Numbered from the stretch's first letter, positions 48,060 through 64,000 are shown. The stretch: 64,000 nt of DNA from Candidatus Aenigmatarchaeota archaeon (GCA_032249395.1 JAVVFY010000002.1:4239-68238); one strand, 5' to 3'. A program made the numbers and translations. The notes: generated by a model from the sequence alone, not told the origin.

Positions 48060-49160
48060 TTAAGTGGAATATGAGTATATTTTAACTATATTGTTGCTAA
48101 AATAGATTTCTCCTTCTGTAAGCAAAGAAATTGAAACTTTGTTTGAAGGAGATAATAAAAGATTGTTACCCATTAAATCTTTAGTTATATTCAATCTAAA
48201 AGCAGTAATTGGAAGTTTTCCTATAAACACTTTTTGATTATTGACTTTGATTTCAACTGAGGGATAACCTTGTTGTACCAATGTAGAAGAAAACTCCAAA
48301 GCATAGAAATTATCTATTTCGCTTTGAGACAAAGGAACTTCAAAGGAAAAAGGCATAGATTTATACTTAACTATAACTCTAGCATCAAAAATATTGTAAG
48401 ATGTTTTAGATAAAACTCTGAATCCTTCATTTTTTACTTCAATATTTATAAAATTCATTTCTTTTATCTCGCTCACATTTATAGGTATCTCTTCAAATCC
48501 TTGAGTAGCTTTTTTCATAAATATAACATTTCCATTGAATTTGACTACTAAAAGACCGGAACCTTTAACATCTGCTATGGCTATTTTAATTTTAGCTTCC
48601 TCGATCTCCATTCTTTCTGGCTTTAAAATAAGCGTTGCCGACTTCGAGGAGAATAAGGACCTTTCAACTATAAAATCAGACTTACTATCTACTATTTTCT
48701 CATTTCCAAAATTAGAAACTTTAAAATCTTCTATAGAAAATGAGCGAGAGGTTAAAGTTAAAGTTGGTGCAACGTATACTTTAACATAAATTGCGTCTTC
48801 TCCACCTTTACCTCTAGCTATTATATAACCTGAATACGTACCATAACCAGTTGGAGAATTTAGAATTGCTTTTATTTCTTTTTCTCCTATAACATTAAAG
48901 TTGTTCTCGCTAAACGAGATTATTTGTGAAAGAGTTTCGTTAGCGATCAGATTTACGTTTGTCAGGTTTCCTATGACTTTAAACGTTATTGTTTTTTGAG
49001 AGTTTGGTAGCATTCTTATTGAAATGCTTCTTGGTTCCAAAGAAGGAGGCAATTCTTGAGGAGTCGCCCAAAAAATAAGCATAATTCCTATGAAGACTAA
49101 CGCACCTAATAAAATGAAGACAAACTCATCTATTATCATTTGTTTTGCCTGAGATTTCAT
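48060..49160 (-). CDS. secreted/membrane-anchored protein of unknown function (N-terminal TM; paralog of 45684-46229)
   Basis: N-terminal hydrophobic anchor FVFILLGALVFIGIMLIF. The C-terminal domain is shared with the truncated paralog. Confidence 0.4.
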   Translation of the reverse strand: MKSQAKQMIIDEFVFILLGALVFIGIMLIFWATPQELPPSLEPRSISIRMLPNSQKTITFKVIGNLTNVNLIANETLSQIISFSENNFNVIGEKEIKAILNSPTGYGTYSGYIIARGKGGEDAIYVKVYVAPTLTLTSRSFSIEDFKVSNFGNEKIVDSKSDFIVERSLFSSKSATLILKPERMEIEEAKIKIAIADVKGSGLLVVKFNGNVIFMKKATQGFEEIPINVSEIKEMNFINIEVKNEGFRVLSKTSYNIFDARVIVKYKSMPFSFEVPLSQSEIDNFYALEFSSTLVQQGYPSVEIKVNNQKVFIGKLPITAFRLNITKDLMGNNLLLSPSNKVSISLLTEGEIYFSNNIVKIYSYST

Positions 49161-57681: not shown

Positions 57682-57984
57682 TCATTTAGTTAAAACAATA
57701 TCAATTGTTGAAACATTAACTTTTCCTTTTCCTTCTACTTCCCTTTCTTCAGTTCCTAGGTCTATTCTCTTTATTTTAACATCTGGCATAAACCTTCTTT
57801 GAATTACTTGAGCTACGTCTACCGCTCTTGATATGCTTTTTCCTCTTGCTTTAATGTGAACTTCTTTTTGGCCACTTGTGAACTGAGTTATTACTGCTAA
57901 AACGTAGCTCATAGTTGGTTTTTTACCTATGAATACAACGTTATCAGCTTGTTGTTCTTTTGCTTCTTCTGACACTATCAACAC
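57682..57984 (-). CDS. albA: DNA/RNA-binding protein Alba
   Basis: [19 protein letters not shown]...[11 protein letters not shown] matches Alba. Confidence 0.8.
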
Positions 57985-58051: not shown

Positions 58052-58972
58052 TTACAGTTTGAACTCTTTTACAACCTTTCTCTTATTCTCAACGCCTTTA
58101 GCGTCTAAGACCTGAAATGCTAAATCTTTTAATTTAGGATATAAAGCACCATATTTCTCTGAGAGCCTATTTACTTCTCTTTCTATGTCTTCGGAACTCA
58201 GATTGTCTACCCTCTTCTGAAGTTCATCCAATTTAGATTGTAATTCATTCCAAACATTTTCATAAGTCTTAAATGTCTTAACATATTCTTTTGTTGCGAC
58301 TACAAACCCTCTAAAGAAAACTCCGATCAGAAAAATCGCTGCGAAAACTACGACACTAAATATACCCATAAAGCTAAAGAGTACCCAAACAGTCTTCACA
58401 AACCAACCCATTGGAATTGTCAAAAATGCAATAATAAAAGCCAAAACTCTGTTAACATTGGGAGATACATGAGTAAATACTTCTAACATTTGTAGAAATG
58501 TCCAAACAAGAGTGTAAATAGCAGCAAAGGGTAAAATAAACAAATAAATTATTGCTGGAACGTACATCCATTGCTCGGGTAACCCAAGCATTAGAAAAAC
58601 GTTAGCTGCGAGGGGTGGTAAAGGAGAAACTTTCATATTTTCTGGTACCTCTAATATAGTTGGATAAGGAATAAAGAGTGGTAGCATGAATAGCAAAAAT
58701 AAAACAACTGCGTATAAAATTAAACCAAGATTTATGCCTCCTCCTCCTGGTAAACCTGGTAAACTCGGCATGCCACCTTTAGCTACTATAAAAAGCAAAA
58801 CTATGAAACCTAAAATGAACAAAACAGGTATTAAATCTTTAGCAATGTTAACTAATGTTTCTCTGATTTCATTCATTGTTGTTGTTCCTCCACCAGACTG
58901 AGCTAAAGAAACATTTATAGTTAAAAGTAGGAAAAATAACAGAAAAACTAATACTTCTTTAATTTTCTCCAT
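58052..58972 (-). CDS. polytopic membrane protein with Gly/Pro-rich loop and C-terminal coiled coil, hypothetical
   Basis: Signal/TM N-terminus, then GMPSLPGLPGGGGIN, several TM helices, then ELQSKLDELQKRVDNL. Confidence 0.3.
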   Translation of the reverse strand: MEKIKEVLVFLLFFLLLTINVSLAQSGGGTTTMNEIRETLVNIAKDLIPVLFILGFIVLLFIVAKGGMPSLPGLPGGGGINLGLILYAVVLFLLFMLPLFIPYPTILEVPENMKVSPLPPLAANVFLMLGLPEQWMYVPAIIYLFILPFAAIYTLVWTFLQMLEVFTHVSPNVNRVLAFIIAFLTIPMGWFVKTVWVLFSFMGIFSVVVFAAIFLIGVFFRGFVVATKEYVKTFKTYENVWNELQSKLDELQKRVDNLSSEDIEREVNRLSEKYGALYPKLKDLAFQVLDAKGVENKRKVVKEFKL

Positions 58973-59009
58973 TTTACTTAATTGTTTTAAATATTTAAAA
59001 GCTTTCTTT

Positions 59010-59258
59010 TTATCTTTTTTTCAAAAAGTAAAAAGAAAGAATTATAAAAATTATAAAAATCAAAAGGGCTGAAAATGAAAAGAAAGCTAATATAAAAGTT
59101 TTATAATAGTAAAAAGAACCAATAACAAAAAAAGAGGAAACCAAAGCTATTATTAAATTAATACTCCTTTCAAAAAATCTAATCTTGCTCAAAATACCAT
59201 AAACAATTAGGAATGAGAGGAATGAAAATGATAGAGCCAAAATATCCTCAATCATCAA
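59010..59258 (-). CDS. small membrane protein, hypothetical
   Basis: 82 aa with two TM helices. Confidence 0.2.
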   Translation of the reverse strand: MMIEDILALSFSFLSFLIVYGILSKIRFFERSINLIIALVSSFFVIGSFYYYKTFILAFFSFSALLIFIIFIILSFYFLKKR

Positions 59259-59749
59259 AACACCTTTTCTCTAGCTTTTTTATACCATTCCTCCTCATCA
59301 ATCTTAATTCCACTTATTTTCGCTAAACTTTCCGCCTCAGAAATTTTTTCTCTTATCGCTTTCTTAATTTCTTGTCTTTTCCCCTCGTCTTTCCCCACTT
59401 CAAGCTCTTTAGTTAATCTTTCTACATCTTCCTTTAGTTTCTTTAGCCTCTCCTTCCCTGTTATAACAGAAGTAGAATACTTTAAAATTCCCAACAAATA
59501 AAGAGAAACAAAAACCAAAACAGTTAAAGCAGCTGCTAAATAAGGCAAAACTTTAGTTAAACCAAAAGAATAAAGGGAAAATACAGAAATAGAAGAAATA
59601 GTTAAAGCAGTTAAAGAGTAATATAAATTTCCAACATTTCCAAATATGTTAGAGCGCTTGAGAAAAACGAATAATATCAAGTAGAAAAGAATTAGAGGTA
59701 AAAATATGGAAAATATGAACTCATTTAGTTCTAAGCTAAATATTTCCAT
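59255..59749 (-). CDS. membrane protein with C-terminal coiled coil, hypothetical
   Basis: Four TM helices then KERLKKLKEDVERLTKELE. Confidence 0.3.
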   Translation of the reverse strand: MEIFSLELNEFIFSIFLPLILFYLILFVFLKRSNIFGNVGNLYYSLTALTISSISVFSLYSFGLTKVLPYLAAALTVLVFVSLYLLGILKYSTSVITGKERLKKLKEDVERLTKELEVGKDEGKRQEIKKAIREKISEAESLAKISGIKIDEEEWYKKAREKVF

Positions 59750-59794
59750 AAAATAGTTTTCTTAACAATAAATAAACGTAAAACAAAATAAGAG

Positions 59795-61894
59795 ATGAGT
59801 CTTCTTGACAAGCTAATTAAAGATAGTTGGAAAAACCGGATAAGAGAAAAATTGGAAGATCTTTACAGAATTAAAGACGAGTGGAGAGGCAACATAAGAG
59901 AAAAAATAGATCAGTTATATACTTTGTCAAAATCAGAAACCTTTTTAAGCACTATAAACAGAATAAGCGAGTATTCGCTAAAATCTTCAGCATTCCTATT
60001 AATAACAACATTTGCCTTCTATCCTGGATTTGTTTCTAAAATTTTTTGGGCATTCCTAATATTATTTGTTATATTGGCATTAGCATCTATAGCATTAAAA
60101 ATTTTCTTCCCAACCGCAATAATAAGAGCTACTATTTCAACTTTTCTTGGCGCCGATCCTCTCACTTCTGTTTTAAAATCGATTGGAGCGATCCTCCTAA
60201 TGCTTCTTTTTACTATATTTTTACCCTCCCCAAATTACTTTAAAACGTTCGAACCAATAGGAGAGCTTCCAGTTTATATTTTGTTTTTATTATCAGTTCT
60301 AGCATCATTCTTCCTTGCATCCTTAAGATTTCCGCAAATTTTTGTTTTTGGAGCAGCATACATTATTTTCTTATACTTTGTATTACCAATTTCGATTTTC
60401 GCAGCAACAACAAAAACTTGCATAGAAAGCAAATCTCTATCTTCCATTCAAATACCTTTACTCTCAAGCGCAACAGATAGGTATTCTTGTCAAAGGTTGA
60501 CTAAATCTTCTTTAATGTTAACTGGAAAAGTTGAAACTATACCTTCTACTTCTGGAATTGATGTTAAAATTGGTTTAACACAAATGAATCCGTTGCCTGC
60601 TGGAAAAACTTTTAAAGAAGTTTTCATAATTACTAATAATTATCAAAAAAATGTAACATTAAATAGAATTTACCCGTATTTGAGAAGTTCATATTATAAT
60701 GTGCTATTTGTACCTAAAGACTACCAACAGAAAAAAACAATGCTACTTACTAAAGAAAATTACGGAGAACAAATAGTTTTTGACCCGTTTCAGCTAGATA
60801 TTATAGTGCCTAGTGATAAAAGATGTAAGATAACCCAAGAATGGATGAAAGAACGAGGGTATGTTTCTGAATGTTCTTATGAAAATCCGTGTGAAGAAAA
60901 AAATGGTTTAAAAGCTGCTTGTGTTCAAGTAGGAACGTATTCGTGCAAATGTGTTGATTGGGTAGAAGCTACTTGTAGTGGGGCTCCTTTGAATTTGATA
61001 ATTGATATGAGGCACACCGGATTCCTAAATGGTAGGGGAGCTCTATATTATTTTGAGGATTATAATCCTGCTTCTCTCCCTTCTTATAGATACATCCAAT
61101 ATCCTGCGGAAATTACAATATATTTCACGCCAAACCCTTGGTTTCAAAAAAGATATGCTGAATACATAGATGAAATCTATATGTTCGCCCAGATAAAATT
61201 TTACTCAAAACAACCACGAATAACAAGACTCTCTGTAGAGCCAATAACAACAATAGTAAATATAACAGACGAAATTAACAATGTAGTAATAACAGAATCT
61301 ATAGGAATAAGGAAGAAAGATTGCAATTTGAAGGAAAAAATGGAAGAAATAAACTATGCTTTAAGTAGTAAGGGAGAATGGACTGGAGTTTTGTGCACGT
61401 TTTATCCGCCATCAATAAATGTTGAAGTTAAAAACTTAACTGATGGAAGTACGATCGCTACTACTTCTGTATCGCTCTTGCTAATAAATCAGTACTGCAA
61501 CGCTGAATACATAAACCTATCTTCATACAAAAGTTCTGCAGAAGCATTAGTAAAATACTATGAAAACCTTAGAGTAATAGAATCTTTAAGTAAGGATATA
61601 AGAAGGACTATAGATAAATATGGATTTTGTTCTTATTTGAAAGGAGAAAAAGAAAAGGAAGAAATGAGAAAAAAGAGAATAATAGAAAATAACATAAAAA
61701 GAATATATGTTTATGTTAGTTTTGATTACGTAACTTCGCAATATTTTGTTTCAAGAAATATTTATCCTTATTATACTCCAGCTTGCGAAGGAAAACAAGT
61801 AGCAAAGCAACCTGAAGAAAGTAGAGAAGCTTCTGAAGAAAAGAAAGAAGAACTGCAAACAAGCATTTCTGAAATGTTCCCAGAAATACTATAA
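59795..61894 (+). CDS. large membrane-anchored protein with Cys-containing extracellular domain, hypothetical
   Basis: About 220 aa of TM helices followed by a ~480-aa soluble region with CEEKNGLKAACVQVGTYSCKCVDWVEATCSG. Confidence 0.35.
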   Translation: MSLLDKLIKDSWKNRIREKLEDLYRIKDEWRGNIREKIDQLYTLSKSETFLSTINRISEYSLKSSAFLLITTFAFYPGFVSKIFWAFLILFVILALASIALKIFFPTAIIRATISTFLGADPLTSVLKSIGAILLMLLFTIFLPSPNYFKTFEPIGELPVYILFLLSVLASFFLASLRFPQIFVFGAAYIIFLYFVLPISIFAATTKTCIESKSLSSIQIPLLSSATDRYSCQRLTKSSLMLTGKVETIPSTSGIDVKIGLTQMNPLPAGKTFKEVFIITNNYQKNVTLNRIYPYLRSSYYNVLFVPKDYQQKKTMLLTKENYGEQIVFDPFQLDIIVPSDKRCKITQEWMKERGYVSECSYENPCEEKNGLKAACVQVGTYSCKCVDWVEATCSGAPLNLIIDMRHTGFLNGRGALYYFEDYNPASLPSYRYIQYPAEITIYFTPNPWFQKRYAEYIDEIYMFAQIKFYSKQPRITRLSVEPITTIVNITDEINNVVITESIGIRKKDCNLKEKMEEINYALSSKGEWTGVLCTFYPPSINVEVKNLTDGSTIATTSVSLLLINQYCNAEYINLSSYKSSAEALVKYYENLRVIESLSKDIRRTIDKYGFCSYLKGEKEKEEMRKKRIIENNIKRIYVYVSFDYVTSQYFVSRNIYPYYTPACEGKQVAKQPEESREASEEKKEELQTSISEMFPEIL

Positions 61895-61940
61895 TCTTGA
61901 TCAAAACTTTATATAATATAATAATTGAGAAATTAAAGTT

Positions 61941-62243
61941 ATGAGGGAAATACTTTATATTGTTGCAAGCGCTGCAGTAGTCGTTATATCAATATACATT
62001 CTTATAAAGTTGGGTTTCATTCCTTTTGCTGGCACAGTTAGTAAACAAGATTGCATAAACAATATAATGCTTGCCTGTGATGAATATAGAAGTAAAGGCA
62101 AAGTAGACGCTTTTAACAAAATTAGTAGTGGTTGTGCAGATATTGTAGAATCTGGATCTCTAAAAGAATGTTTAAGAAAGGATATCAAGGAGGAATTAAA
62201 AAGACAATATTGTAGTGAGCTCTGTAAAGAGTTCGGACTATGA
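61941..62243 (+). CDS. small N-terminally anchored Cys-rich protein (paralog of the next gene)
   Basis: Shares six conserved Cys with 62285-62611: QDC...ACDEYR...AF...C.D...C...YC..LC. Confidence 0.35.
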   Translation: MREILYIVASAAVVVISIYILIKLGFIPFAGTVSKQDCINNIMLACDEYRSKGKVDAFNKISSGCADIVESGSLKECLRKDIKEELKRQYCSELCKEFGL

Positions 62244-62284
62244 CCATAAAATAAAGTATTTAAATACGAAAAATAACAGGATTA

Positions 62285-62611
62285 ATGAGGGGGATCACTT
62301 TAGAAACTGGTGTGATATTAGTAGTTTTGCTATTAATTGTGGCACTTCTATTCTACTACCTTTATATTAATTTTGTATCCTCACAAAAAACCCTTACAGG
62401 ACAACAATGCGATGCCCTATTAAACACTGCATGCCAGGCCTACCGACAAGGAACTCCTCCTGGTGCGGCTTTTAAAAATGTGCCAAATGAATGTGTAGAT
62501 GTAGGAAATCGGCAGCATTTGAGTGCGTGTAAGGAAGGCAATAGAGAAGCATGTGAGATTATATGCGAACTATGGATAGTAGGAGAACCAGAAGAATTTG
62601 GAGTAATATAA
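62285..62611 (+). CDS. small Cys-rich protein with pilin-like (class III signal peptide-like) N-terminus
   Basis: MRG|ITLETGVILVVLLLIVALLFYYLY resembles a prepilin-type leader with Glu at +4/+5 and a hydrophobic stretch. The Cys pattern is shared with 61941-62243. Confidence 0.35.
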   Translation: MRGITLETGVILVVLLLIVALLFYYLYINFVSSQKTLTGQQCDALLNTACQAYRQGTPPGAAFKNVPNECVDVGNRQHLSACKEGNREACEIICELWIVGEPEEFGVI

Positions 62612-62634
62612 GAATCTCTTAAGGTGAAACTTCG

Positions 62635-63849
62635 ATGTGGAATAATAAAATTAAGTTTTATTCGTTTACTTTATTTCTTATCTCGCTTTTTTTACTTTTG
62701 TTAGCATCTTCTTTAACACTCGCAACAAACGTTCAAAGTCAATCTCAGAGCCTAGAAACTTTGGAGATAAAGCTTGGGAAAGGATGGAACATGGTATCTT
62801 TTCCATTTGAAAAGGCATATATATTTTTCAACGAAAGTGATTGCTACTTTCTATTCAACTTCGCAGGAAAATTAAAAGACCCAACTAAAAGGGCTTTTAG
62901 AGAAAGATACGAACCATACAACCTAAACCAAGAGAAAGATGAGCTTGGGGGAATACCACTAGTTATTTATTCTTATGAAGAGTGTACTCTAAAAGTTAAA
63001 GGAAGCGGAAGACTTACCGCAAATGAAATAAATAAGAGAGAAAATTTGGTGAATTTAACAAAGGGGTTGAATCACATACCAATTCCTTATGGCGGAATTC
63101 AACTAACTCAACTAAAGGATTGTACAATCAACAGTGTTATGTATTACAATTCCTCAGAAGTATTTTACAAATGGTATAGATGGGAGCCTCTCGGATTCGG
63201 CCAAATAAAATTCTCTAAATCAAACGATACCAAAACATGGAGTGAAATATCAACATTAGATAACTATTATTTGCCACATGGAATAAGCGTATTTATAGAC
63301 GTAAAGGAGAAATGTAAATTAAGGTTTAGTGAAGAATCAACACAAACAGCTGTAACAACAACTACAACTACTCAGCAGACAACAGGTCAAGTAAAAGTAA
63401 TAGAAATAGAGTGTCATAATAGAAATGATTGGGATTCGTGTCCTAATAGAGTATATAATTTTGGAATTAGGGAAAACGAAAAAATTATAATATATAATTG
63501 CAATGCAACACAATTAGCAACTGAGCTTGGTGATTATTATTATACCTCTCGACTTTATTTTAATGTATCAACACAGAAAAACCAGAAATGCAAACTTGAA
63601 TGGAAAGTTGAATCATCCAATGCTGATCAGGGTTATTATCTTCGCATTTACACAAGTTCTACATCCTGTCCTCCTTATCCGTATGATTGTATGAGCTTCG
63701 GAGAAGGGAATAATATTAAAATCGCTAAATGTACAAATGAAAGTTTCTCTGGAACCTCATATTCACTTGTGGCTGTAGACTCTCCAAGAAAACCATCACC
63801 AAAAGATACAATCTTTAACGTATCGGTTTCAATTACCGATTGCAAATAA
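62635..63849 (+). CDS. secreted protein with signal peptide, Thr-rich linker and multiple Cys, hypothetical
   Basis: N-terminal signal (LFLISLFLLLLASSLTLA) and TAVTTTTTTQQTTGQ. Confidence 0.35.
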   Translation: MWNNKIKFYSFTLFLISLFLLLLASSLTLATNVQSQSQSLETLEIKLGKGWNMVSFPFEKAYIFFNESDCYFLFNFAGKLKDPTKRAFRERYEPYNLNQEKDELGGIPLVIYSYEECTLKVKGSGRLTANEINKRENLVNLTKGLNHIPIPYGGIQLTQLKDCTINSVMYYNSSEVFYKWYRWEPLGFGQIKFSKSNDTKTWSEISTLDNYYLPHGISVFIDVKEKCKLRFSEESTQTAVTTTTTTQQTTGQVKVIEIECHNRNDWDSCPNRVYNFGIRENEKIIIYNCNATQLATELGDYYYTSRLYFNVSTQKNQKCKLEWKVESSNADQGYYLRIYTSSTSCPPYPYDCMSFGEGNNIKIAKCTNESFSGTSYSLVAVDSPRKPSPKDTIFNVSVSITDCK

Positions 63850-64000
63850 ATAAAACTATAATGGTCTCCAACTATAATCATTGCTCGTTATAACTTCAAA
63901 AATTAAAGAAATGTTTCTAAACTTAGTAGTTCCTTCTAATTTGTCAAAAACTGGATATTGATCTTTAGTAGTAATATTAACGCTAGCACTAACTGCAGCA

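What the first reader, a model, noticed from the sequence alone, without database searches (positions are those of the whole stretch)
58052..63849. Cluster of seven membrane or secreted proteins of unknown function, including tandem Cys-rich mini-proteins with pilin-like N-termini
Downstream of albA the window ends in a block of genes on both strands. Every product is membrane-embedded or exported. Several carry coiled coils (58052, 59255), Cys-rich ectodomains (59795, 62635), or a Thr-rich linker (62635). Genes 61941 and 62285 are paralogs sharing six Cys. Gene 62285 begins MRG|ITLETGVIL, a class III (type IV pilin-like) signal peptide pattern. In small-genome archaea such clusters are candidates for cell-surface or host-attachment structures. 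I recognise none of these as a described family.
Basis: partly seen in the sequence, partly recalled or inferred. Interest (0 to 1): 0.55.

Follow-up and report, generated by a model that had tools for sequence, protein, structure and literature searches.

The report
Edge of an archaeal pilus locus
The seven genes are real and form the near half of a conserved type IV pilus (surface filament) gene cluster in an uncultured small archaeon (Aenigmarchaeota); the motor genes lie just past the window's end, so this is a fairly ordinary kind of locus built from protein families nobody has described.

Summary
All seven ORFs exist as described. Every product has a signal peptide or transmembrane (TM) segments, and none matches Pfam or NCBIfam. 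The window comes from a Candidatus Aenigmarchaeota MAG. The same contig continues past the window end into a minus-strand operon. That operon encodes a T2SSE secretion ATPase, a T2SSF platform protein and at least seven proteins starting M-[KR]-[GS] plus a hydrophobic helix, the class III (prepilin) pattern. Gene 62285 (MRG|ITLETGV) fits that pattern. Its paralog 61941 starts MRE and belongs to a conserved subfamily with no cleavage site. In some relatives both mini genes are the last genes of the pilin operon. The 699-aa protein and a Cys-rich mini gene stay next to the pilus operon in five distant lineages (ATPase about 57-59% identical where it is on the contig). The 306/82/164-aa trio is a paralogous TM plus coiled-coil module with a looser link. 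The 404-aa protein fills a variable slot. AlphaFold gives the mini-protein a long N-terminal helix and an all-alpha head with six invariant Cys, not a classical pilin head. No prepilin peptidase gene was found in about 74 kb. This is a new member of the known kind "DPANN type IV pilus island with unrecognisable pilins". Interest is moderate.

The parts
58052..58972 (-). g306: 306-aa polytopic membrane protein. It has a Sec-type signal peptide (…VSLAQ|SGGG), Gly/Pro-rich loops, about 5 TM segments and a charged helical C-terminal tail. It is the last gene of the minus-strand trio.
   Evidence: ORF and TM peaks. No family hit. Orthologs are 47-58% identical in close relatives and 38-45% in the distant loci L023, L025 and L028. 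Residues about 141-271 are homologous to g164 (profile E 7e-9).
59010..59258 (-). g82: 82-aa protein with 3 TM segments. Its TTG start overlaps the g164 stop (TTGA) and is preceded by AAGGTG. It is not annotated in the NCBI record.
   Evidence: The exact sequence is absent from the protein collection, and the locus tags 01295 and 01300 on either side are consecutive in NCBI's numbering. It is conserved at 49-77% identity by tblastn in at least 9 loci and detectable in L023, L025 and L028.
59255..59749 (-). g164: 164-aa membrane protein with about 3 TM segments and a charged helical tail. It is the first gene of the minus-strand trio and a paralog of the C-terminal two thirds of g306.
   Evidence: Orthologs are 61-67% identical in close relatives. 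Two g164-like paralogs sit on the other side of the pilus locus in L011.
59750..59794 (.). 45-bp AT-rich divergent intergenic region between g164 and g699, presumably holding a bidirectional promoter.
   Evidence: Sequence. The spacing is similarly short (about 47-64 bp) in L005, L007 and L009. Promoter function is inferred and was not tested.
59795..61894 (+). g699: 699-aa protein. It has a helical N-terminal region, 4-5 TM helices (about residues 77-205) and a large beta-rich domain (about 255-665). All 14 Cys of the protein, 12 of them in that domain, are invariant.
   Evidence: AlphaFold: overall pLDDT 65.9; most 10-residue blocks of the large domain score 76-92, with dips near 430-460 and 560-590. 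An exhaustive profile search finds 34 clusters. It lies next to a type IV pilus (T4P) operon in every context examined. No Pfam, PDB or specific fold match.
61941..62243 (+). g100: Cys6 mini-protein of the MRE subfamily. It has an N-terminal hydrophobic helix but no [KR][GAS] cleavage motif.
   Evidence: A TGA stop lies 4 codons upstream, so no longer reading frame is possible. At least 11 family members share the invariant start MRE(I/D)…IV.
62285..62611 (+). g108: Cys6 mini-protein with a class III (prepilin-type) N-terminus, MRG|ITLETGVILVVLLLIVALLFYY. The predicted structure is a long helix plus an all-alpha head.
   Evidence: All six orthologs of the two mini genes in L005, L007 and L009 start MKG. 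AlphaFold pLDDT is 75 overall and 84-91 over residues 41-90 of the head.
62635..63849 (+). g404: secreted protein with a Sec-type signal (…SLTLA|TNV), a Thr-rich linker and 12 Cys. It occupies a variable slot between the mini genes and the pilin operon. A GGTGA motif 10 nt upstream suggests co-transcription with g108.
   Evidence: Full-length homologs occur only in L003 and L004, with partial ones in L012 and L013. It is absent from L005, L007, L009, L014 and L016. Unrelated secreted proteins fill the same slot in L023, L025 and L028.
63856..64000 (-). 3' end of a 389-aa pilin-like gene (MKG|TFVGVILTIAIL…), the last gene of the minus-strand pilus operon. The operon continues about 8.7 kb past the window to the T2SSF and T2SSE genes.
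   Evidence: L001 is identical to the window over 11,366 nt; window position = L001 position + 52,634. Gene list and translations. Pfam on the ATPase and platform proteins.

Best explanation
The flagged genes are the proximal part of a roughly 14.6-kb type IV pilus (T4P, archaeal/Tad-like) locus. The locus is conserved in Aenigmarchaeota.

**Shown**
- The contig continues into an operon with a FlaI/TadA/CpaF-type ATPase, a TadC/PilC-type platform protein and a series of proteins that start with the three-residue leader M-[KR]-[GS] before a hydrophobic helix.
- g108 has the same N-terminus.
- The g699 gene and the mini genes travel with this operon across distant lineages.

**Inferred mechanism**
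- g108 is inserted into the membrane through Sec. A PibD-type prepilin peptidase, encoded elsewhere in the genome, removes MRG.
- The ATPase and platform protein then extract g108 from the membrane into a filament through its N-terminal helix. Its small head, probably stapled by three disulfides, ends up on the filament surface. g108 would most likely be a minor or tip subunit.
- g100 (MRE start) cannot be cleaved. It probably stays membrane-anchored or acts as a non-polymerising partner.
- g699 is a membrane-anchored, Cys-rich, beta-sandwich ecto-protein specific to this type of pilus system. It could be an anchor, an adhesin or an envelope adaptor.
- g404 is a variable secreted surface or adhesion factor.
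- g164, g82 and g306 form an operon of paralogous TM plus coiled-coil proteins. It is co-regulated with g699 from a 45-bp divergent promoter region, and it may form an inner-membrane scaffold.
- The likely role of the whole system is adhesion to surfaces or to a host cell.
For: **Machine next door**
- The ATPase matches Pfam T2SSE at E 5.5e-14. The platform protein matches T2SSF at E 6.1e-7 in two stretches.
- The closest solved relatives of the ATPase are Archaeoglobus GspE (2oap, 4e-26), CpaF (1e-22) and FlaI (5e-20).

**Class III pattern**
- In the pilin block, 8 of 11 genes pass a relaxed rule, against 3 of 82 other window ORFs (p = 2e-7). Six of 11 against 0 of 82 pass the strict M[KR]G rule (p = 6e-7).
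- The published rule requires G/A/S at -1 and a charged residue at -2, and KG|Q is a known processing site (PMC4371748).
- PibD cleaves leaders as short as 3 residues (PMC4187195).

**Mini genes**
- All six orthologs of the two mini genes in L005, L007 and L009 start MKG.
- In L005 and L009 they are co-directional with the pilin operon and 31-47 bp downstream of it.

**Linkage of g699**
- A g699 homolog, a Cys-rich mini gene, pilin genes and the T2SSF gene occur together in L023, L025, L026, L027 and L028. The ATPase is 57-59% identical to the window's where it is on the contig, and the housekeeping flank differs.
- In L027 pilin genes lie on both sides of g699.

**Evolutionary rates typical of surface proteins**
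- Mini-proteins are 25-37% identical and g699 about 50%, against 83-87% for GlyRS in the same loci.

**Structure**
- In the model of g108 a helix spans residues 5-35 and is followed by a compact head.

**Precedent**
- DPANN T4P islands with unrecognisable pilins have been described (PMC6393860).
Against: - No prepilin peptidase gene was found in the 64-kb window or the 10-kb extension. The multi-TM ORFs in the window are a cation efflux protein, an EMC3/YidC-like protein and SecY.
- The predicted mini-protein head is all-alpha, with no beta-sheet. No pilin appears in the fold or PDB searches: the best Foldseek E is 3, and a PilE1 sequence hit has E 0.68.
- g100 lacks the cleavage motif.
- The alba gene is also next to the block in every locus. 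Part of the synteny may therefore be inherited gene order rather than functional linkage.
- The g306/g82/g164 trio is separated from g699 by five or more other genes in L023, L025 and L028. It is missing from the L026 and L027 loci.
- The topology of g699 is ambiguous. With 4 TM segments the Cys-rich domain would be cytoplasmic; with 5 it would be outside.
- There are no expression, proteomic or imaging data.
- FlaFind, SignalP and TMHMM could not be run.
Confidence: 0.7

Rival explanations
1. Neighbours by descent only. The minus-strand trio (g306, g82, g164), and possibly g699, are membrane proteins with a function unrelated to pili, such as envelope biogenesis or transport. They sit beside the pilus operon because gene order is conserved in this clade.
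For: Housekeeping genes (GlyRS, NTPase, HD, DHH, Alba) are syntenic with the block in all close relatives. Alba stays adjacent even in distant loci. The trio is separated from g699 by inserted genes in L023, L025 and L028, and is absent from the L026 and L027 loci. No trio member has a class III motif.
Against: g699 stays next to the mini and pilin genes when the housekeeping flank is replaced, and it is embedded among pilin genes in L027. g164-like paralogs turn up on the opposite side of the pilus locus in L011, an independent arrangement. g164 and g699 share a 45-bp divergent intergenic region.
Confidence: 0.15
2. A pilus-like machine that is not an adhesive pilus. The ATPase, platform protein and prepilin-like proteins form a short pseudopilus, a bindosome-like assembly or a DNA-uptake apparatus. 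In this reading g108 and g100 are pseudopilins, and g404 (or the other proteins of the variable slot) are cargo or substrate-binding proteins.
For: There are many different prepilin-like genes and no obvious abundant major pilin. A variable slot holds secreted Cys-rich proteins of 292-1207 aa next to the machine. NCBIfam gives a weak hit to the bindosome ATPase BasE (50 bits) among others. PibD substrates are known to include bindosome subunits (PMC4371748).
Against: The BasE hit is far below its cut-off of 1000 bits, and hits to FlaI and TadA are stronger. None of the proteins matches a substrate-binding-protein family. g404 has a Sec-type signal, not a class III signal.
Confidence: 0.1
3. 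The mini-proteins are not filament subunits. They are small membrane-anchored or released Cys-rich effectors (toxin-, bacteriocin- or signal-like). Their M[KR]G start is a coincidental short charged N-terminus before a signal anchor.
For: The head is an all-alpha domain with six invariant Cys and no resemblance to known pilins. The MRE subfamily shows the fold is kept without a cleavage site. The genes evolve fast and are duplicated in tandem.
Against: The same M[KR]G start is shared by most genes of the adjacent pilin operon and is otherwise absent from the window. In some genomes the mini genes are the terminal genes of that operon. The family is found only in these loci. No immunity-like or processing-peptidase partner gene is evident in the locus.
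Confidence: 0.05

Closest known systems
Archaeal adhesive type IV pili (Sulfolobus Aap and Ups, Methanococcus maripaludis Epd, Haloferax PilA systems)
   Same: Both have a FlaI/TadA-type ATPase, a TadC/PilC-type polytopic platform protein and several prepilin-like proteins with a charged residue at -2 and G/A/S at -1 before the hydrophobic domain. The KG| site matches the Epd pilins (KG|Q).
   Different: - Nearly all leaders in the window's locus are only three residues (M-K/R-G/S), against the usual 6-12 (PMC4187195).
- No pilin family model matches.
- The mini-protein head is predicted all-alpha with six Cys.
- The locus has additional conserved components, g699 and the g306/g82/g164 module, with no counterpart in those systems.
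- The prepilin peptidase was not located.
DPANN 'dark matter' type IV pilus islands (Makarova, Wolf & Koonin 2019, PMC6393860, Fig. 2A)
   Same: It is the same situation. The ATPase and TadC-like genes are recognisable, and they are surrounded by signal-peptide proteins with no detectable similarity to known pilins. Those proteins are interpreted as divergent pilins.
   Different: I could not check whether this Aenigmarchaeota locus or its protein clusters are among the published examples, because figures and the FTP tables are not held. Traced here, and not taken from that paper: the g699 family, the Cys6 mini family with its MKG and MRE subfamilies, and the trio.
Thermoproteales type IV pilus loci (Makarova, Koonin & Albers 2016, PMC4858521)
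   Same: Almost all components carry multiple conserved Cys that are expected to form disulfides. The loci include extra lineage-specific membrane proteins, a large signal-peptide protein that may be an adhesin, and fast-evolving small minor pilins.
   Different: No sequence relationship to those arCOGs was tested, because the arCOG profiles were not available. The lineage (DPANN) and gene order differ.
Bacterial Tad/Flp pili (CpaF ATPase)
   Same: The ATPase aligns with CpaF over about 335 residues at E 1e-22. NCBIfam TadA scores 121.6 bits. Both systems use very small pilins dominated by one hydrophobic helix.
   Different: The TadA score is below the equivalog cut-off of 373 bits. No TadV, RcpA or TadZ counterparts are present. 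The ATPase has a roughly 250-residue N-terminal extension. This is an archaeal cell envelope.

Membership tests
Archaeal type IV prepilin / class III signal-peptide protein (PibD/FlaK/EppA substrate) | Charged residue at -2 and G/A/S at -1, placed before (not after) the hydrophobic domain, near the N-terminus (rule as stated in PMC4371748) | tested here: met
   g108 (62285) starts M-R-G|ITLETGVILVVLLLIVALLFYY. All six orthologs of the two mini genes in L005, L007 and L009 start MKG. This row applies to g108 only.
Archaeal type IV prepilin / class III signal-peptide protein (PibD/FlaK/EppA substrate) | The same cleavage motif in the paralog g100 (61941) | tested here: not met
   It starts M-R-E-I-L-Y, with E where G/A/S is required. 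An in-frame TGA lies 4 codons upstream, so there is no alternative start. At least 11 family members conserve MRE.
Archaeal type IV prepilin / class III signal-peptide protein (PibD/FlaK/EppA substrate) | Uninterrupted hydrophobic stretch of about 20 residues immediately after the site | tested here: met
   The mean Kyte-Doolittle hydropathy of the best window is 3.0 for g108 (18-residue window; 19-residue window) and 2.8 for g100 (19-residue window).
Archaeal type IV prepilin / class III signal-peptide protein (PibD/FlaK/EppA substrate) | Genomic association with a T2SSE-type ATPase and a T2SSF-type platform protein | tested here: met
   On the same contig the platform gene starts 5.9 kb downstream of g108 and the ATPase gene 7.8 kb downstream. 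The mini gene sits beside the platform gene in five distant loci, and the ATPase gene follows where the contig extends that far.
Archaeal type IV prepilin / class III signal-peptide protein (PibD/FlaK/EppA substrate) | Match to a curated pilin, archaellin or class III signal model | tested here: not met
   No Pfam or NCBIfam pilin or archaellin family at E <= 1 for g100 or g108. The PDB profile search gives only PilE1 at E 0.68.
Archaeal type IV prepilin / class III signal-peptide protein (PibD/FlaK/EppA substrate) | Pilin fold: a long N-terminal alpha-helix carrying a beta-sheet-containing globular head | tested here: inconclusive
   The AlphaFold model (28-sequence alignment, pLDDT 75) has a helix at residues 5-35, but the head is four short helices with no strands. 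Foldseek against the PDB finds nothing with E below 3. This is a prediction only.
Archaeal type IV prepilin / class III signal-peptide protein (PibD/FlaK/EppA substrate) | Cleavage by an A24-family prepilin peptidase and incorporation into a filament | not testable with these tools
   No candidate peptidase in the window, and no Pfam-annotated candidate among the genes called in the 10-kb extension. The rest of the genome could not be read.
Type II/IV secretion-family ATPase (Pfam T2SSE; FlaI/TadA/CpaF/GspE2 group), for the neighbouring gene that defines the system | Pfam T2SSE above the gathering threshold, with a P-loop core alignable to solved members | tested here: met
   52 bits against a cut-off of 24.9, E 5.5e-14. 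PDB matches: 2oap 4e-26, CpaF 1e-22, FlaI 5e-20.
Archaellum (FlaI motor with FlaH, FlaJ and archaellins) | FlaI equivalog score, plus FlaH and archaellin genes in the locus | tested here: not met
   NCBIfam FlaI scores 125 bits against a cut-off of 550. No archaellin or KaiC-like FlaH hit among the locus proteins.
T2SSF platform protein (TadC/PilC/FlaJ) | Polytopic membrane protein with two T2SSF domains | tested here: met
   Pfam T2SSF scores 29.9 bits against a cut-off of 25.2, with two matched stretches, in the 631-aa protein.

The most novel reading that the evidence does not exclude
The most novel reading not excluded is that Aenigmarchaeota use a distinct kind of type IV filament module with four features:
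- The surface-exposed subunit is a roughly 100-residue pilin with a non-canonical all-alpha head, stapled by three disulfides.
- A conserved leaderless sister subfamily (MRE, ME or MVE starts) enters or terminates the filament without any prepilin-peptidase step.
- The filament is coupled to a dedicated polytopic partner with a large Cys-rich ectodomain (the g699 family).
- It is also coupled to a TM plus coiled-coil scaffold (g306, g82, g164).

Together these parts would form the host-attachment organelle of this uncultured DPANN lineage.
Probability: 0.15. Interest if true: 0.6.

Novelty: new member of a known kind. Interest (0 to 1): 0.35.

Why it matters
No Aenigmarchaeota have been cultivated, and how DPANN cells hold on to hosts or surfaces is largely unknown. 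In the analogous bacterial radiation, type IV pili trigger the episymbiotic association of Saccharibacteria with their host (PMC9894109, listed).

This analysis turns six proteins annotated as hypothetical, plus one unannotated gene, into a defined surface-filament locus with named parts:
- a Cys6 mini-pilin family (26 clusters);
- a 34-cluster family of polytopic ecto-proteins that always accompanies the pilus operon;
- a paralogous TM plus coiled-coil module;
- a variable slot for secreted proteins.

These parts give concrete targets for metaproteomics, antibody or FISH-guided imaging, and structure work. The fast-evolving parts are candidates for determinants of host or surface specificity. 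The result does not overturn anything: archaeal pilus loci with lineage-specific, unrecognisable components are expected.

Tried and rejected
**Family and structure searches that found nothing useful**
- Pfam and NCBIfam on all seven proteins gave only sub-threshold noise: MtrG, SLATT, PIP49_N and similar.
- Pfam on ten distant g699 homologs gave nothing.
- PDB sequence searches with g404 and with profiles of g699 and g306 gave nothing.
- The mini-family profile hit yeast PUF4 at E 7e-5. I reject this as a chance helical or compositional match. PUF4 is a cytosolic RNA-binding repeat protein, and Foldseek with the model found no PUF protein.
- Saposin A appeared at Foldseek E 4.3. The parallel (small, helical, six Cys) is tempting, but the hit is not significant and the Cys spacing differs from what I recall of saposins. 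I keep it only as a lead.
- Foldseek with the g699 model gave transglutaminase, protein 4.2, RbmA and arrestin at TM-scores of about 0.1. That says generic beta-sandwiches, not a family.

**Searches for more loci**
- The GTDB genome scan with g699 found nothing. The scan with the platform protein found one locus, L011, whose contig ends too early.

**Ideas tested and dropped**
- Mobile element or provirus: GC content is uniform and the block sits in conserved housekeeping synteny.
- Invertible-switch explanation for the two orientations of the mini-gene pair: no flanking inverted repeats beyond chance.
- The sigma-70 promoter and terminator scan is not applicable to archaea, and its counts are near the shuffled expectation.
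- N-glycosylation sequons as a test of topology: no enrichment.
- A search for a prepilin peptidase by GxGD motif and by Pfam on the window's multi-TM ORFs was negative.

Full report
**1. Checking the observation**

The seven ORFs are present exactly as listed. Hydropathy shows the following:
- g306 (58052-58972, minus strand) has a Sec-type signal and about five TM segments.
- g82 (59010-59258, minus) has three TM segments.
- g164 (59255-59749, minus) has about three TM segments.
- g699 (59795-61894, plus) has four to five TM segments, followed by about 450 residues that hold 12 of its 14 Cys.
- g100 (61941-62243) and g108 (62285-62611) each have a single N-terminal hydrophobic helix and six Cys.
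- g404 (62635-63849) has a Sec-type signal peptide, a Thr-rich linker and 12 Cys.

g100 and g108 are paralogs (BLASTP E 1e-5, six Cys aligned). None of the seven reaches the cut-off of any Pfam or NCBIfam model. GC content is the same as in the rest of the window. The description is therefore confirmed, with two corrections:
- g100 starts MRE, not M[KR]G.
- The cluster does not stop at 63849.

**2. Origin of the sequence and what lies beyond the window**

Exact look-ups place six of the proteins in a Candidatus Aenigmarchaeota MAG (MDT7858666-71), all annotated as hypothetical. g82 is not annotated there.

The same contig (L001) is identical to the window over 11,366 nt and extends 10 kb further. 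A minus-strand operon begins six base pairs after g404. In the order of transcription it contains:
- a 722-aa ATPase (Pfam T2SSE, E 5.5e-14);
- a 631-aa platform protein (T2SSF, E 6.1e-7, two stretches);
- ORFs of 40, 57-60, 383, 85, 160, 265, 172 and 389 aa.

Window 63856-64000 is already the 3' end of the 389-aa gene.

The ATPase is closest to Archaeoglobus GspE (2oap), CpaF and FlaI. It falls well below the archaellum FlaI equivalog cut-off, and there is no archaellin or FlaH gene. This is therefore an archaeal type IV pilus-like system and not an archaellum.

**3. The class III signal**

The published rule for archaeal prepilins is G/A/S at -1 and a charged residue at -2, placed before the hydrophobic domain. 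Known sites include KG|Q (PMC4371748).

In the operon the starts are:
- 389 aa: MKG|TFVGV
- 172 aa: MRG|QIAPF
- 265 aa: MRG|DVTTN
- 383 aa: MRG|AIPIA
- 60 aa: MKG|MAIWV
- 85 aa: MKS|VAWSF
- 160 aa: …KS|QLKIEW

g108 starts MRG|ITLETGV.

A simple rule-based scan finds 8 positives among the 11 genes of this block, against 3 of 82 other window ORFs (p = 2e-7). The strict M[KR]G form gives 6 of 11 against 0 of 82 (p = 6e-7).

Nearly all leaders in the window's locus are only three residues. That is unusually short, since 6-12 is typical, but PibD has been shown to cleave 3-residue leaders (PMC4187195).

**4. The mini-protein family**

A word-index search found only 3 relatives of g108. A profile search found 26 clusters, all 88-123 aa and all from metagenomes.

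The alignment has eight invariant positions: C42, C50, Y53, F63, C70, C82, C90 and C94. It shows two subfamilies:
- MKG/MRG starters, which include g108;
- MRE starters, which include g100, with at least 11 members sharing the invariant start MRE(I/D)…IV.

An in-frame stop four codons upstream of g100 rules out a longer N-terminus. Similar starts without a cleavage motif recur in distant loci: MEKIIYL in L026 and MVETRTIV in L027.

AlphaFold with 28 sequences gives pLDDT 75. The model has:
- a helix at residues 5-35;
- a low-confidence hinge;
- a compact head of four short helices, with pLDDT 84-91 over residues 41-90.

The N-terminal half therefore looks like a pilin and the head does not. 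No solved structure resembles it.

**5. Conservation of the arrangement**

*Close relatives.* These loci have GlyRS 83-87%, ATPase about 76-81% and g699 about 50% identical to the window. They are L003-L010 and L012-L016. They share the order:

alba | g306 | g82 | g164 | g699 | two mini genes | [g404] | pilin operon | T2SSF | T2SSE

.
- In L005 and L009 the mini genes are on the minus strand, 31-47 bp downstream of the last pilin gene. There they are the terminal genes of the pilin operon.
- No inverted repeats flank the pair in the window.
- The housekeeping flank is syntenic as well, so these loci alone cannot separate functional linkage from inherited gene order.

*Distant relatives.* An exhaustive profile search with g699 found 34 clusters at 50% identity. 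The named members come from Aenigmarchaeota bins, apart from one labelled Heimdallarchaeaceae. I read five distant contexts: L023, L025, L026, L027 and L028. In them the ATPase is 57-59% identical where it is on the contig, the platform protein 35-42% and g699 23-29%.
- The housekeeping flank is different there, although alba remains.
- g699, an adjacent Cys-rich mini gene, the pilin genes and T2SSF are always together, and T2SSE follows wherever the contig extends that far.
- In L027 pilin genes lie on both sides of g699.
- The Heimdall-labelled contig (L028) has the same locus, so it is probably mis-binned.

**6. Three modules, not one unit**

*(a) g699 plus the mini gene(s).* This is a constant part of the Aenigmarchaeota pilus locus.

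*(b) g164-g82-g306.* These form an operon: the g164 stop overlaps the g82 start.
- g164 is homologous to residues about 141-271 of g306 (profile E 7e-9).
- The trio is divergent from g699 across 45 bp in the window.
- It is separated from g699 by five or more other genes in L023, L025 and L028.
- It is absent from the L026 and L027 loci.
- Two g164-like paralogs lie on the other side of the pilus locus in L011.
- Its link to the pilus is therefore plausible but weaker.

*(c) g404.* It occupies a variable slot.
- Full-length homologs occur only in L003 and L004, with partial ones in L012 and L013.
- It is absent from five close relatives.
- In L023, L025 and L028 the slot holds unrelated secreted proteins of 300 and 671 aa, 1207 aa, and 292 aa respectively.

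**7. g699 itself**

All 14 Cys are invariant in nine homologs. The AlphaFold model (pLDDT 65.9) has:
- low-confidence N-terminal helices;
- a TM bundle;
- a beta-rich domain in which most 10-residue blocks score 76-92, with two lower stretches.

Foldseek returns only generic beta-sandwich proteins at TM-scores of about 0.1. No Pfam or PDB relative exists, even for distant family members.

The topology is unresolved. A 5-TM reading puts the Cys-rich domain outside, which fits the positive-inside rule and the invariant Cys. A 4-TM reading cannot be excluded.

**8. How it most likely works**

Shown:
- The machine genes are adjacent.
- The class III pattern is present and enriched.
- The g699 and mini genes are conserved next to the operon.

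Inferred:
- A PibD-type peptidase encoded elsewhere removes M[KR]G from g108 and from the operon's prepilins.
- The ATPase and platform protein polymerise them through their N-terminal helices.
- g108's small head, probably disulfide-stapled, is displayed on the filament.
- g100 cannot be cleaved. It stays in the membrane or plays a non-polymerising role.
- g699 and the proteins of the variable slot provide anchoring or adhesion.
- The trio may form a membrane scaffold with cytoplasmic coiled coils.

The mini-proteins and p383 evolve fast (25-37% identity where GlyRS is 83-87%). That fits surface-exposed, specificity-determining proteins.

Main weaknesses:
- No prepilin peptidase was found in about 74 kb.
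- The head is non-canonical.
- There are no experimental data.

**9. Comparison with what is known, and novelty**

The kind is known. Makarova et al. 2019 (PMC6393860) describe DPANN pilus islands in which only the ATPase and TadC are recognisable and the surrounding signal-peptide proteins are inferred to be pilins. Makarova et al. 2016 (PMC4858521) describe Thermoproteales pilus loci that are rich in conserved Cys and carry extra lineage-specific membrane proteins.

I found no paper dealing with Aenigmarchaeota pilus loci or with these families. I rate this a new member of a known kind. The less likely but more interesting reading is given separately under the most novel reading. It combines the all-alpha head with six Cys, the conserved leaderless subfamily and the constant g699 partner.

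**10. Verdict**

Interest is moderate (0.35). A specialist would not be surprised by a divergent pilus locus in a DPANN genome. The locus does give concrete, testable candidates for the attachment apparatus of an uncultured lineage.

Noticed in passing
L001 15802-15924 (-), about 4.4 kb past the window end (would be window 68436-68558): A 40-aa single-TM ORF overlaps the stop codon of the T2SSF platform gene. It is conserved (36-42 aa) in every locus where the region just downstream of the platform gene was read, including the distant L026 and L027. Some copies start MKG or MKA. It may be a micro-protein partner of the platform protein or a helix-only mini-pilin.
   Followed up: partly
window 48060-49160 (-): A 366-aa protein with no Pfam match starts MKS|QAKQMIIDEFVFILLGALVFIG. 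That is a class III-like start followed by a single hydrophobic helix. The rest of the protein has no Cys. It may be a stand-alone pilin-like or surface protein 10 kb from the locus.
   Followed up: partly
window 59010-59258 (-): The 82-aa gene is missing from the NCBI annotation, where the locus tags of the two flanking genes are consecutive in NCBI's numbering. It is nevertheless conserved in at least 10 related loci and is translationally coupled to g164 (TTGA overlap, AAGGTG upstream).
   Followed up: yes
window 59815-59856 and 59869-59910: A 42-nt tandem direct repeat (71% identity) encodes a duplicated helix motif (IKDxWxxxIREKxxxLY) in the N-terminal region of g699. It occurs only in the window and L003 lineage.
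   Followed up: partly
L001 20012-21034 (+), past the window end: Two coiled-coil proteins (129 and 207 aa) are transcribed divergently from the ATPase gene. They are conserved in all loci that reach that far, including L011 and the distant L027. They are probably cytoplasmic partners of the pilus motor.
   Followed up: partly
L011 5626-6752 (-): Two adjacent membrane proteins of 185 and 190 aa have g164-like N-termini (…F(L/F)PFLL…L(K/R)…KIFGE…); the 185-aa one matches the g164 profile (E 1.5e-7). They lie on the opposite side of the pilus locus in a more distant Aenigmatarchaeota MAG. This is an independent arrangement that again places this family near the pilus genes.
   Followed up: partly
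L028 (ENA ERZ2433807 NODE_5043); protein MHA1828271.1: A g699 homolog labelled Candidatus Heimdallarchaeaceae sits in a typical Aenigmarchaeota-type locus (alba, g306, g82, g164, g699, mini gene, pilin genes, T2SSF). The contig is probably mis-binned.
   Followed up: partly
L007 19506-21673 (-): In this relative the ATPase gene is split into ORFs of 626 and 80 aa. This is either a frameshift or an assembly error. The near-identical L008 has the intact 722-aa gene.
   Followed up: no
window 57682-57984 (-) and every related locus: The alba chromatin-protein gene stays within about 10 kb upstream of g699 in all loci that extend that far, even where the rest of the housekeeping flank is replaced. 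It directly abuts the g306 homolog in the close relatives and L023, and g699 itself in L026. I have no explanation; it may simply be inherited gene order.
   Followed up: no
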